Of a DNA stretch of 64,000 nucleotides, positions 43,592-54,772 are shown in pieces. The position numbers and the translations under genes were made by a program. Source of the stretch: Sminthopsis crassicaudata (taxonomy: Eukaryota); assembly GCF_048593235.1 (NCBI RefSeq), contig NC_133622.1, forward strand, positions 239,227,198-239,291,197. The letters are read 5' to 3'. Positions within the stretch are counted from its first letter, which is position 1, and every line of letters begins with the position of its first letter. The notes beneath the pieces are model-generated. The model saw nothing but the letters and a program-made list of their open reading frames with translations, was not told the DNA's origin and did no database searches.

Positions 43592-43696
43592 GCATATATA
43601 TATATATACATATATATCTAATCATTTACATGAATCTATACTTATATTCAGAAATCTCATTGTTGTTGTAGTTAGTGATTAATGGAATTGATTAAT

Positions 43697-44072
43697 TGTA
43701 ATGTTCTGTTGTCTCCTGAGACTGCCAATCACTCTCTGGGAGCAGATCTGCTGTCTCAACTCAATCTCTCAGCCAGATTTTTCTTCCTGTAGCAAGCTGC
43801 CAACTCTGACGTAGAGTAGAGACTTCTGCCCTTGCTCAATGTTGTTTCTTTTATCTTCCCAGAGAATGGGCATGGAATAACTCAGGGGCTTCTTGGAAAA
43901 AATATTTCAACCAATGAACTTGCTACTCTTAAACATGCAAGCTCCTCCCCAGAAGTTCAAAGGGGTAAAACTCCCTTTAAGGCTGGAACTAGAAAATTTT
44001 TAAGTACAGACTTAGCACTTAGTAAGAAACTAATATCTCATTATCTCATTAGCAATTAGTAAGAACCTAACA
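43697..44072 (-). repeat. 3' LTR of the minus-strand provirus
   Basis: 376 bp, roughly 10% diverged from 45133-45507 by manual count. R/U5 is homologous to 6880-6980 but U3 differs. Confidence 0.95.
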
Positions 44073-44379
44073 TCTCCCCCTTTCTTTTGTTTTAGAACAT
44101 ATGGTGGTCATGACCTTGAAACATAAATCCATCAATATGGGAGGCATTACACATAATTACATAAATTAAATAAACACATAGTAACATAGTAACATTATAC
44201 ATGCTAGAAGTATATAACAAATAACATAATCAAATAATCATAAATTGAGAATTTATAAATGTCCATAAGTCCATTGTCCATTAGTCTCATCTTGTGTTAG
44301 GAAATCCAATGATTCCTGCTGGTTTTAAAATTCTTTAACAGTCTTCTTATTAGCCATGCTCTTTCAGTGTCAGAGTTTC

Positions 44380-45053
44380 TTAGATTTTCTCCTTTGTTTT
44401 GAGGTCTTTCTCTTTTTCTGTCTCTCTCTGATGGACAAGGCAAATACAGCTCATTGGCACCCATCTGATTCCTTCTCCTTCTGAAGAAATACAAGCAAAC
44501 CCTCTCCCCCAAGCAGTTAACCTATCTGGTCCCTTCCATTCACCACTTTCTGGGTCTCTCGACATCACCTGGAGATTATCTAAGGACAGTGGAGCTGCTC
44601 ACACTGGACACTGCCCTTCTGGTGGGTTATAAAACCTGTCTGCTGGAGCCAGTGCATCTTTGTCAAAAATTAGAAAATTAATGGTATAGAGAACTAAATT
44701 TAGACGTTCTCTAGGGTTACCTGTGGCTTCCCCTTTCTTTTGTTTTTGGAAGATTGTCTTATGTCTCTGTTTCTTTTCTCTACTATTGCCTGGCCTTGTG
44801 GATTAAAAGGTATTCCATTGGTGTGTAAAATCTTATACTGTGCACAAACATGCAGAAAATGTTTAGAACTATATGCAGGTCCATTATCTGTTTTTATTTC
44901 TTGTGGCACACCCATAATTGCAAATGCTTGGATAAGGAATTCAGAGACCACCCAGGCTGTCTCTTTTGACATTGGCACTGCAAAAGTGAATACTGAAAAG
45001 GTATCTACTACCACATGGATAAAAGACAGACGACCAAAATATTTATTTACTGA
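44380..45053 (-). pseudogene. Integrase remnant (catalytic core lacking the first Asp, plus C-terminal domain)
   Basis: FGRLSFIHVVVDTFS...MGVPQEIKTDNGPAY...GIPFNPQGQAIVE and WKGPDRLTAWGRGFAC...WVP. Frameshifted after DIRQ. Confidence 0.92.
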
Positions 45054-45129
45054 GCCTGGCTAGCTCAGTCAATAGAGCATGAGACGCTTAATCTCAGGGT
45101 TGTGTGTTCAAGCCCCATGTTGGGTGCAA
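45054..45129 (+). tRNA. Full-length tRNA-Lys(CTT) copy (pseudogene) with CCA-like end, occupying the PBS position of the provirus
   Basis: GCCTGGCTAGCTCAGTCAATAGAGCATGAGACGCTTAATCTCAGGGTTGTGTGTTCAAGCCCCATGTTGGGTG+CAA: 64/73 identity to vertebrate tRNA-Lys(CTT), with 6 of the 9 changes being CpG transitions. Anticodon CTT intact. Confidence 0.95.
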
Positions 45130-45132
45130 ATA

Positions 45133-45507
45133 TGTAATGTTCTGTCATCTCCAGAGACTGCCAATCACTCTCTGGGAGGAGATCTGCTGTCTCAACTCAA
45201 TCTCTCAGCCAGATTCTTCTTCTTGTAGCAAGCCACCAAGTATGACCTAGAGTAGACTTCTGCCCTTGCTCAATGTTGCTTTTTTTATCCTCCCAGAGAA
45301 TGGGAATGGAATAACTAAGGGGCTTCTGGGAAAAAAAATACTTCAACCAATGAACTTGCTCCTTCTAAACATGTAAGCTCCTCCTCAGGAGTTCACAGGG
45401 GTAAAACTCCCCTAAAGGCCTGAATTAGAGAATTGTTAAGTACTGACTTAGCACTTAGTAAGAACCTAATTCTCATTATCTCATTAACACTTAGTAAGAA
45501 CCTAACA
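45133..45507 (-). repeat. 5' LTR of the minus-strand provirus
   Basis: 375 bp. The U5 end (CATTACA on minus) lies 3 nt from the tRNA 3' end. Confidence 0.95.
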
Positions 45508-47218
45508 ATTAATGTTTCTAATGATAGCTGCAAGGCATAAAACAAGACCAAATGACCTTCATGGTGATCATTGTATTGTGGCAAGTGTGGCAATTAATAA
45601 GTACAACAGTCATAATTTCTGGGTAATTTAATCATATAATTAATAAGACTAGCAGATAATAAATAAAGGGTGATTATTTGATTTTCTCTCAGGCTAAAGA
45701 TCCCTTATGGTGGTGGAGTCACAGTTTATATTCCCTCAAAGAGGAAATGTTCCTAATTTCCATCATTTAATATAATGAGAGGAGGGCTATTTTGGGGCAT
45801 ATGATTTAGATCTCTCAAATCTTGGTCAAAGACATATCAGTTTCCATATTGCCTGGCTTGATGATTTGTAGAGTCAATATTTTCCTCTAAGATGCCTGAG
45901 CAAAAGCAATGAGCAGAAATACACTCATTAATTTAAACTTTTGATTTCTTTTGCTGGCTGATTATATCCTAAAAAATTAATCTCTAGGAAAGAGTTCCCA
46001 TGTAGGTTGATTTATGGTTAAGGAAATTAAAAAGGGAAAAATCCTTGGTCTAATTCAATATCCACTCTGTATATTGTAACTCTGTAACTATTAGATAGAA
46101 ATATTCCTTTCTCCCAAAAGGTAGATTTCCCAAACAGTAAGTCTTGGGGAAAATTCATCTTGAGTTTAAGAGTTGCTTCATTTCCAAACCTCAATTTAAT
46201 GCATATAACACCAATATACTCTGACTGAGAACATAAATGTATGATGATAGAATGCTACTTAGAATTCAATATTGCTTTTAAATGAATTTGAAATCTCTTA
46301 GTCCAAATATTACTATCTATGTGAAAAATAAAGGTGTATATGTGTGAAGCAATATCTATTTTATTTCAAGTTAAATGTCTGCCTAATTGTTATGGTAAGT
46401 TAAATTTAATATTTACTTTTTGAAGCCAACAAAGATTAAAATGATAATGTATAGTGTGAATTTGAATGTCCAATGCTTAAATAATCTTTCTTCCTCTTCT
46501 CTTTCCCCCAGAAAATAACAAAACTCCTTTCCACCCATGTACAACATTTTAGATTATGACAACATTGCCTTGATCTCTGGTTTATTGATCAAGGTGAAAA
46601 GGTGAGTGGATGAATGCTATATGCAGCATTCTTCTCCCCCCTCTTTTTTCCAACATATTTTATTTTGGCATATTCCCCTTGGACTTGCATCATACTTATC
46701 TCTTTTACATTAGAATTATCTACATATTATGTAGTATTCCAGATTATGATTTTGGGGGTAAAATCCTTTTTTTTTTTTAAAGGAACCTCTTAAACTGTTC
46801 TTCTAGATTAAAGAGTTGTTCAATATTTTCAACCGTGTCTGATTCCCATTTGGATCCCATTTGGGCTTTTCTTCTTTAGACCATGTCAGATATAAAGAAA
46901 ATGATTCAAACATTTTTAATGATTTGCCCTGGATCACACATTTGAATTAAAATCTTTTTACTCCATACCTCCACTCTATCCTCTGAGACATCTAGATCCT
47001 AATAAACAATAATCAATTAAGGCAATGATAATAGAATATCAATGATATGGAAGAAAACATATATAATCAGTTTTTATATCTTTGCTCCAGACAATTACAT
47101 GACAAATAGATACGGGTAATAGAAGGGCAATTTCATTTAAACGATGAATATTGACTGACATGGTAAATCTAGAGAAATAAGACAAAATGACAGCCATGCT
47201 ATTAGCAGAAAAGTTTTG

Positions 47219-54539: not shown

Positions 54540-54772
54540 NNNNNNNNNNNNNNNNNNNNNNNNNNNNNNNNNNNNNNNNNNNNNNNNNNNNNNNNNNNNN
54601 NNNNNNNNNNNNNNNNNNNNNNNNNNNNNNNNNNNNNNNNNNNNNNNNNNNNNNNNNNNNNNNNNNNNNNNNNNNNNNNNNNNNNNNNNNNNNNNNNNNN
54701 NNNNNNNNNNNNNNNNNNNNNNNNNNNNNNNNNNNNNNNNNNNNNNNNNNNNNNNNNNNNNNNNNNNNNNNN
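54540..54772. other. Assembly gap (233 N)
   Basis: Run of N, flanked on the right by (TA/CA)-rich low-complexity sequence. Confidence 1.

What the first reader, a model, noticed from the sequence alone, without database searches (positions are those of the whole stretch)
45054..45132. Provirus with the entire tRNA-Lys primer copied into its primer-binding site
Seen: directly inside the 5' LTR (3 nt from U5) the minus-strand provirus carries the complement of a whole tRNA-Lys(CTT), nucleotides 1-73 plus CAA where the non-templated CCA would be. The sequence then jumps straight into integrase, about two codons after the first catalytic Asp. Flanking 6-bp TSDs show the structure integrated as one unit. 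Established: plus-strand strong-stop synthesis normally halts at m1A58 of the primer, giving an 18-nt PBS; read-through is known mainly from in vitro work or hypomodified primers. Inference: RT copied the primer to its 5' end, the over-long strong-stop DNA could not pair at the normal PBS, and it transferred to an internal pol site, deleting leader, gag, pro and RT in one step. A58 is copied as A (45111), so there is no misincorporation scar. If more copies exist, this is a non-autonomous LTR family carrying a Pol III-type RNA, loosely analogous to 5S-bearing plant Cassandra TRIMs.
Basis: partly seen in the sequence, partly recalled or inferred. Interest (0 to 1): 0.9.

Follow-up and report, generated by a model that had tools for sequence, protein, structure and literature searches.

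The report
Proviruses that copied their whole primer
This dead retroviral insertion carries a backwards copy of a whole lysine tRNA where only its last 18 bases belong, and it is one of more than a hundred differently joined insertions of this kind in the same genome, which likely arose when reverse transcriptase ran past its normal stop on the primer tRNA and which appear to record that tRNA's chemical modifications in the DNA.

Summary
A 1.8-kb minus-strand provirus with a 6-bp TSD reads: 5' LTR, 3 nt, the complement of all 76 nt of tRNA-Lys(CTT), a 7-nt insert, integrase tail, 3' LTR. A contig from another sample spans the tRNA/integrase junction.

It is not the founder of an amplified family; its junction is unique. 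It is one of at least 121 read-through junctions among 3,526 LTR-PBS junctions (3.4%). Partners differ almost every time: deletions, inverted U3-U3 elements with perfect TSDs, or direct joins to host DNA.

Opposite A58 the copies read T67/A22/C11/G0 of 100, against 6 mismatches in 833 at other T columns. That is an m1A-type scar, so the mature tRNA was the template. tRNA-Lys(CTT) is copied past 41 nt in 98 of 100; tRNA-Lys(TTT) in 2 of 30 (maximum 44), fitting the known ms2t6A37 block. tRNA-Pro sites show 0 of 360.

Ordinary copies of the parent betaretrovirus-like family carry two tandem primer sites, both apparently used. The chemistry is known in vitro; I found no report of such a germline fossil set in ten literature searches.

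The parts
45508..45513 (.). target-site duplication, copy beside the 5' LTR (ATTAAT)
45133..45507 (-). 5' LTR, 375 bp, TG...CA
   Evidence: about 90% identical to the 3' LTR
45130..45132 (-). 3-nt spacer between U5 and the primer-binding site
   Evidence: 2-3 nt in sister loci
45112..45129 (-). ordinary 18-nt primer-binding site for tRNA-Lys(CTT), complement of nt 59-76; CCA decayed to CAA
45054..45111 (-). read-through part, complement of tRNA nt 1-58; A58 at 45111 copied without a scar; G18/G19 (box A) decayed, box B motif kept
45047..45053 (-). 7-nt junction insert not matching the comparison copy; its first 5 nt are the reverse complement of the tRNA copy just made (likely fold-back priming)
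44410..45046 (-). 3' part of a betaretrovirus-like integrase gene, starting just after the first catalytic Asp; broken further on by frame changes and stops (lower bound approximate)
44727..44743 (-). internal near-copy of the polypurine tract inside integrase
44073..44090 (-). 3' polypurine tract
43697..44072 (-). 3' LTR, 376 bp, short form, no tRNA copy
43691..43696 (.). target-site duplication, copy beside the 3' LTR (ATTAAT)

Best explanation
This is a defective provirus carrying the complement of a whole tRNA-Lys(CTT) at its primer-binding site, one of at least 121 such junctions in the genome, and it likely formed when the reverse transcriptase of a betaretrovirus-like element read past m1A58 to the 5' end of its primer. 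Shown: the structure, the TSD, the counts, the excess of A and C opposite A58, the different stopping points on the two lysine tRNAs, and the variety of junction partners. Inferred: the over-long plus-strand strong-stop DNA could not pair with the minus-strand end, sometimes folded back on itself, and was joined with little or no homology to whatever end or template was near. Here that was the minus strand inside integrase, which removed leader, gag, pro and RT. Integrase then inserted any product that had two CA-bearing ends (U3 plus U5, or U3 plus U3). Each insertion is likely a separate accident and a dead end. Why this family does it often is open. A permissive RT working inside germ cells is my preferred cause; simultaneous priming at the two tandem primer sites likely adds stalled intermediates.
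For: Counts: 121 exact read-through matches of 3,526 LTR-PBS matches, controls 0; a canonical LTR start was found in 83 of the 100 loci fetched. Template was mature tRNA: the copy starts at CCA, which the genes lack; opposite A58 T67/A22/C11/G0 of 100 versus 6 of 833 mismatches at other T columns, P 9e-29; 8 of 8 Lys-CTT and 5 of 5 Lys-TTT gene matches have A58. m1A is known to leave misincorporations as well as stops (PMC4787781, passages). Stops follow modification chemistry: Lys-CTT copied past 41 nt in 98 of 100 and to the end in 39; Lys-TTT past 41 nt in 2 of 30, maximum 44, P 8e-24, matching the ms2t6A37 stop described for HIV-1 in vitro (PMC13191261, passages). Independent events: 93 junction keys in 101 loci; the six copies sharing the commonest junction differ in the base opposite A58 (C, T, A, A, T, T) and in LTR type. 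Of 55 junctions placed on comparison copies, 37 are direct and 18 inverted, with 0-3 nt overlap or 1-12 nt unmatched. Fold-back of 5 nt or more in 9 of 100 versus 2.2% by chance. Integrase-type ends: 28 direct and 15 inverted matches end in CA plus a 6-bp TSD with at most one mismatch.
Against: No intermediate was observed; the order of steps is inferred. 67 of 100 copies, this one included, have no scar, so some primers may simply have lacked m1A58. For 40 of 100 loci no second end was found within 8 kb and for 17 no LTR start. At least one match (L133) lies in rRNA-like DNA and is probably not LTR-attached. Three pairs are double counts: L127/128 are one element; L130/170 and L135/136 share flanks. 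The search pattern requires 8 nt of read-through, so shorter overruns are unseen and the rate is a floor. A second LTR family in which I saw no second primer site supplies 7 of 83 typed loci, so tandem sites are not required. No other genome could be searched, so 3.4% may not be unusual for intracellular ERVs.
Confidence: 0.85

Rival explanations
1. The primer was never removed from the minus strand and was copied only at the very end of plus-strand synthesis, giving 3' LTR plus tRNA. The two-LTR structure then came from end-joining of two DNA molecules or from a circle. The chemistry is the same (RT copies its primer); the timing and the joining enzyme differ.
For: Colicelli and Goff proposed this for a tRNA between the LTRs of a circular MLV DNA (as summarised in PMC12220202, passages). 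39 of 100 junctions lie exactly at the tRNA 5' end with almost no homology. Two read-through LTRs are preceded by a PPT, that is, they are 3' LTRs (L145, L178). Head-to-head products exist (L127/128, L119).
Against: Most direct products have the tRNA after an LTR that abuts host DNA with a TSD, and 20 of 24 other LTR pairs are at least 99% identical, as expected from one round of reverse transcription. Fold-back inserts imply a free single-stranded 3' end that was still being extended.
Confidence: 0.25
2. Host hypomodification: germ-cell tRNA-Lys often lacks m1A58, so any RT would read through.
For: 67 of 100 Lys-CTT and 51 of 61 Lys-TTT copies have the correct base opposite A58. Loss of m1A58 relieves the stop in vitro (PMC8599865, passages).
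Against: A third of the Lys-CTT copies are scarred, so those primers were modified. tRNA-Pro primer sites in the same genome show 0 read-throughs in 360, P 9e-6 against Lys-CTT. Caveats: the Pro motif was recalled and not checked against a Pro gene here, and those elements may replicate in other cells.
Confidence: 0.2
3. A non-autonomous LTR family carrying a Pol III-type tRNA gene, amplified from a founder (Cassandra or Helenus-like).
For: 15 loci join the whole tRNA to the CA end in front of the second primer site; two of them (L273, L274) are single LTRs with the whole tRNA inside and a perfect TSD. ARAGORN calls a tRNA-Lys(CTT) in 54 of 100 loci.
Against: The window's junction is single-copy. 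No two-LTR copy examined has the tRNA in both LTRs. Shared junctions come with different LTR variants and scars. The single tRNA-bearing LTRs can form in one round, like L147 and L175, which jump to the U5 tip. Box A of the window copy is decayed.
Confidence: 0.04
4. An independent L1-mediated tRNA retrocopy, or gene conversion, landed in an existing primer-binding site.
For: tRNA retrocopies with CCA exist in mammals (recalled). One locus has an A run soon after the junction (L152).
Against: In the window there is no TSD or tail around the tRNA. Across loci the copy always begins with CCA at the PBS position and always in primer orientation, and it comes with viral deletions or inversions bounded by integrase-type TSDs.
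Confidence: 0.02
5. Assembly artefact.
For: Highly repeated LTRs, and no DNA-run contig listed across the tRNA.
Against: A contig of another sample bridges the tRNA/integrase junction and carries the gene-type base at 45110. The copy has decayed in step with its LTRs, and more than a hundred sister loci have their own TSDs.
Confidence: 0.01

Closest known systems
Over-long plus-strand strong-stop products of HIV-1 RT in vitro (P1 to the tRNA 5' end, P5 to ms2t6A37; PMC13191261 and PMC8599865, passages read)
   Same: Same two end points: the 5' end of the primer, and the anticodon loop of tRNA-Lys3.
   Different: There they are minor or artificial products said to be unable to finish synthesis and integrate. 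Here they are integrated germline DNA, the full-length copy comes from scarred (modified) Lys-CTT, and they make up at least 3.4% and 1.6% of the two junction types.
Deletion proviruses from strand-transfer errors in spleen necrosis virus vectors (Pulsinelli and Temin 1991; title seen in the reference list of PMC9278108, text not held, content recalled)
   Same: Wrong termination of strong-stop DNA at the PBS giving large deletions, by recall with capture of extra sequence.
   Different: Isolated vector clones in culture, not a natural genome-wide set. I could not check how much tRNA they carried.
tRNA between the LTRs of a circular MLV DNA (Colicelli and Goff 1986) and tRNA pieces in HIV-1 recombinants, both as summarised in PMC12220202 (passages and two parts of the text read)
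   Same: Reverse-transcribed, nearly whole tRNA joined to an LTR or to viral DNA.
   Different: Non-cognate tRNAs (Gly, Asp, Glu) in single clones. Here it is the cognate primer at its own PBS.
MEBrv 3, env-less betaretrovirus-like ERVs of dasyurid marsupials (PMC11334065, sections 7 and 10 read)
   Same: gag-pro-pol without env, recent activity, LTR of 469 nt (463-468 nt in many loci here), class II pol.
   Different: No sequence comparison was possible. The comparison copy is about 6.5 kb versus 7.3 kb. That paper's main text has no occurrence of 'tRNA' or 'PBS'; supplements not read.
TRIMp3 elements: Cassandra, Helenus, Ajax (PMC10886601, abstract and passages read)
   Same: A small-RNA gene inside an LTR element; L273 and L274 have a whole tRNA inside an LTR.
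   Different: Those are amplified families with the RNA gene in both LTRs, unrelated to the primer and proposed to come from SINE insertion. Here it is the primer itself, normally outside the LTR, and not amplified.
Drosophila Gypsy with two tRNA-Lys,2 binding sites (PMC1635307, abstract read)
   Same: Two primer-binding sites in one element.
   Different: Gypsy's sites lie at opposite ends for one tRNA, and only the 5' one is needed. Here two sites 50-75 nt apart serve two different tRNAs, and each defines an LTR end with its own TSD.

Membership tests
Integrated retroviral provirus | two direct LTRs with TG...CA ends, PPT, 4-6 bp TSD | tested here: met
Integrated retroviral provirus | 18-nt PBS followed by viral leader | tested here: not met
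   76-nt tRNA complement, no leader
Betaretrovirus-like (class II) ERV | pol most similar to class II proteins; tRNA-Lys primer; 6-bp TSD | tested here: met
   best matches 5cz1, 5cz2, 3jca, 7usf and 7sr6 (that these are MMTV integrase and HERV-K RT is recalled); no tree built
MEBrv 3 | gag-pro-pol without env; LTR about 469 nt | tested here: met
   comparison copy L201: gag, protease, RT, RNase H and integrase domains, about 300 nt between pol and the 3' LTR; LTR lengths. The window's own LTR is a 375-nt related type.
MEBrv 3 | RT falls in the MEBrv 3 clade | not testable with these tools
   reference sequences not available here
TRIMp3 (Cassandra, Helenus) | small-RNA gene inside both LTRs | tested here: not met
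   window: between LTR and internal part only; none of the two-LTR copies examined has it twice
TRIMp3 (Cassandra, Helenus) | multi-copy family with shared structure and distinct TSDs | tested here: not met
TRIMp3 (Cassandra, Helenus) | Pol III transcription | not testable with these tools
   only contigs were available; X7 is only guessed to be RNA; box A decayed in the window copy
L1-mediated tRNA retropseudogene | own TSD and/or A tail, position independent of a PBS | tested here: not met
Plus-strand strong-stop read-through product | copy of mature tRNA starting at CCA at the PBS, in primer orientation | tested here: met
Plus-strand strong-stop read-through product | RT signature at m1A58 | tested here: met
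   met for the class (33 of 100); absent in the window copy itself
Plus-strand strong-stop read-through product | arrest at ms2t6A37 on tRNA-Lys3 | tested here: met
   28 of 30 end at or before 41 nt; the modification itself was not measured in this host

The most novel reading that the evidence does not exclude
This marsupial-type ERV family naturally uses two tandem primer sites for two different lysine tRNAs, makes two LTR lengths, and fails plus-strand transfer so often that the genome holds a dated archive of germline tRNA modification (m1A58 scars, the ms2t6A37 block, isodecoder use). The same accident also produces LTRs with a whole tRNA gene inside, the predicted first step to Pol III-driven LTR elements and to the old 'strong-stop DNA' idea of tRNA-Lys SINE origin (recalled).
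Probability: 0.4. Interest if true: 0.88.

Novelty: new variant of a known kind. Interest (0 to 1): 0.74.

Why it matters
The textbook view, restated in PMC8599865, is that copying past m1A58 prevents completion and integration. Here such DNA was rescued and integrated more than a hundred times in a germline.

The set offers a natural, dated read-out of tRNA modification in germ cells, and in vivo support for RT stops so far described in vitro. It also shows integrase accepting two U3 ends with a normal 6-bp TSD.

It gives a concrete route by which an LTR element can pick up a whole tRNA gene, which makes ideas on TRIMp3 and SINE birth testable.

In practice these copies can inflate tRNA-Lys(CTT) gene counts: ARAGORN called 54 of 100 loci, against 8 strict gene matches.

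Tried and rejected
1. An amplified family from this copy: the junction search with 2 mismatches gave only the window and one non-LTR chance hit, with 1 control hit.
2. Second-round amplification through the Lys3 site: 15 loci have the right junction, but none examined has the tRNA in both LTRs.
3. The spacer between the two primer sites as a decayed ancient tRNA copy: in 32 distinct spacers only the last 14 nt resemble the complement of the tRNA 5' end, and I had selected on 5 of those letters. Without them the median Z is about 1, no better than for other tRNAs (one search crashed and had a contaminated set). Left as a weak lead.
4. Homology-guided transfer as the general rule: rejected apart from two hotspots.
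5. Expression: only contigs were available and X7's RNA status is a guess, so nothing is concluded. Missing DNA-run cover over the tRNA is uninformative. Small-share runs were not used.
6. The second LTR family's ORFs gave no Pfam match in 3 of 3; it stays unidentified.
7. Rfam on 7 unexplained loci found an rRNA match only at L133.
8. Literature: ten searches returned no report of whole-primer proviruses in a germline or of tandem Lys1,2/Lys3 sites. The library lacks most subscription papers, and three primary papers were not held, so absence from print is not established. PMC4408412 passages showed nothing on it.

Full report
OBSERVATION. On the minus strand the window holds an LTR element from 45507 to 43697, flanked by ATTAAT on both sides. 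After the 375-bp 5' LTR and 3 nt comes the complement of tRNA-Lys(CTT) nt 76 to 1 (45129-45054), colinear with a gene of this genome, with 10 substitutions. Seven unmatched letters follow, then the integrase gene from the fourth codon after its first catalytic Asp, a PPT and the 3' LTR. The LTRs are about 90% identical, the lowest of 25 direct pairs measured; 20 of the other 24 are at least 99% identical. This copy is therefore old and the process went on until recently. A contig from another sample bridges the tRNA/integrase junction.

IT IS ONE OF MANY. A DNA search of the own genome gave 3,264 candidates, of which 40 were scored; the 29 other loci fetched all show LTR plus a long tRNA complement, nearly all with different partners. 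An exact pattern (LTR end, PBS, 8 more tRNA letters) matched 121 times and the PBS-only pattern 3,526 times, controls 0. The strict pattern caught 16 of 29 loci found by similarity and misses the window copy itself, so the true number is likely nearer 200 (inference). I fetched 9 kb for the first 100 listed matches; 21 were not listed. Three pairs among the 100 are double counts and at least one (L133) is probably not LTR-attached.

THE TEMPLATE WAS MATURE tRNA. Copies begin at CCA. Opposite A58 they read T67/A22/C11/G0, against 6 of 833 mismatches at other T columns, while 8 of 8 gene matches have A58. RT misincorporation at m1A is documented (PMC4787781, passages). Both Lys-CTT isodecoders present among the genes appear in the copies. 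A second class reads through tRNA-Lys(TTT): 61 of 3,698 junctions, T51/A7/C3/G0 opposite A58, genes 5 of 5 A58. In the 30 fetched, copying ends at 26-44 nt, 28 of them at or before 41, whereas Lys-CTT passes 41 nt in 98 of 100 and reaches the 5' end in 39. Position 37 is copy position 40, and ms2t6A37 of tRNA-Lys3 is a described RT stop (PMC13191261, passages). That Lys-CTT lacks this bulky form is recalled. tRNA-Pro primer sites show 0 read-throughs in 360 matches (motif recalled; a few sites are counted twice).

HOW THE ENDS WERE RESCUED. 55 of 101 junctions could be placed on natural comparison copies: 37 direct, 18 inverted, with 0-3 nt overlap or 1-12 unmatched letters. Nine of 100 start with 5 or more letters folded back from the tRNA copy, against 2.2% by chance, and so does the window. 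There are two hotspots. One is an inverted join in pol with 7-8 of 12 matches, used six times with different A58 bases and LTR types. The other is a join to the CA end in front of the second primer site (15 loci). By outer ends, 27 matches are direct with a short LTR end, 1 direct with a long end, and 15 inverted with U3 on both sides (14 elements), each with a TSD of at most one mismatch; 40 had no end found and 17 no LTR start. In L113, L142 and L159 the tRNA abuts host DNA with a 6-12 bp duplication (L142 lies in a simple repeat). Some elements keep only a tip of the second LTR, 17-41 nt from the tRNA end (L147, L148, L175, L176).

THE PARENT FAMILY. Comparison copy L201 has gag, protease, RT, RNase H and integrase domains and no room for env. 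It resembles MEBrv 3 (PMC11334065), untested by sequence. Ordinary copies carry the Lys-CTT site, a spacer ending in CA, and a Lys-TTT site 51-72 nt further on: 14 of the first 30 unselected loci. Three of those 30 are single long LTRs ending at that second CA with a perfect TSD (L067, L072, L081), and L115 has a long 3' LTR, so the second site also primes. L118 carries the whole Lys-CTT copy, the second CA, and 39 nt of Lys-TTT, with a short 3' LTR, which suggests both primers in one particle (inference). A different LTR family, in which I saw no second site, gives 7 of 83 typed loci, so tandem sites are not required.

FAMILY OR ACCIDENT. The window's junction is single-copy; there are 93 junction keys in 101 loci; no copy examined has the tRNA in both LTRs. 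L273 and L274 are single LTRs with the whole tRNA inside and perfect TSDs. They look like the first step to a TRIMp3-type element (PMC10886601) but can form in one round.

COMPARISON WITH PRINT. Over-long strong-stop DNA is known in vitro and is said to block completion and integration (PMC8599865, passages). Single clones with tRNA next to an LTR are known (PMC12220202). A 1991 vector study of strand-transfer deletions is the closest precedent, but I saw only its title. Ten searches found no germline census, no fossil modification signature and no tandem Lys1,2/Lys3 sites; the library is incomplete and supplements were not read. Three unchecked earlier notes from this scan describe similar accidents in other genomes, which hints that the process may be general; I did not test them.

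VERDICT. Real, and larger than reported: a new variant of a known reverse-transcription error, preserved at scale. Confidence in read-through of the mature primer with illegitimate rescue is 0.85; the cause of the high rate is open. Interest 0.74.

Noticed in passing
L061-L090, e.g. L076, L083, L067, L072, L081: Ordinary copies of the family have two tandem primer-binding sites (Lys-CTT, then Lys-TTT 51-72 nt on), each preceded by CA, and two LTR lengths, both with TSDs.
   Followed up: yes
window 44727-44743; L201 internal position about 4865: A near-exact copy of the PPT lies inside the integrase gene, like a central PPT; three junctions (L128, L151, L154) fall at its edge.
   Followed up: partly
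L098, L103, L114, L125-L128, L158, L160, L176, L177: Elements with U3 at both outer ends (inverted LTRs or only a U3 tip) and perfect 6-bp TSDs.
   Followed up: yes
L088, L196, L198: Inverted LTR copies also occur beside ordinary 18-nt primer sites, without read-through; aberrant joins straight after the PBS in a few of 30 unselected loci.
   Followed up: partly
L105, L188: A Lys-CTT primer site continues with Lys-TTT T-arm sequence, suggesting a switch between two tRNA templates.
   Followed up: no
L272-L274: Single LTRs with a whole tRNA-Lys complement inside the U5 end; two have perfect TSDs.
   Followed up: partly
spacer between the two primer sites, 32 distinct copies: Its last 14 nt resemble the complement of the tRNA-Lys 5' end: a possible second pairing site or a relic; the rest of the spacer shows no significant likeness.
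   Followed up: partly
L133:952-1226: A tRNA-Lys complement sits inside 18S rRNA-like sequence with no LTR found.
   Followed up: partly
L111, L120, L143, L185: A second, young LTR family (about 575-bp LTR, Lys-CTT primer site) with long ORFs that match no Pfam family also shows read-through.
   Followed up: partly
L194, L199, L205, L206: A young subfamily of about 2.5 kb internal length, keeping a gag-sized ORF and lacking most of pol, with 99-100% identical LTRs.
   Followed up: no
window 54540-54772: 233 N in the window, far from the element.
   Followed up: no
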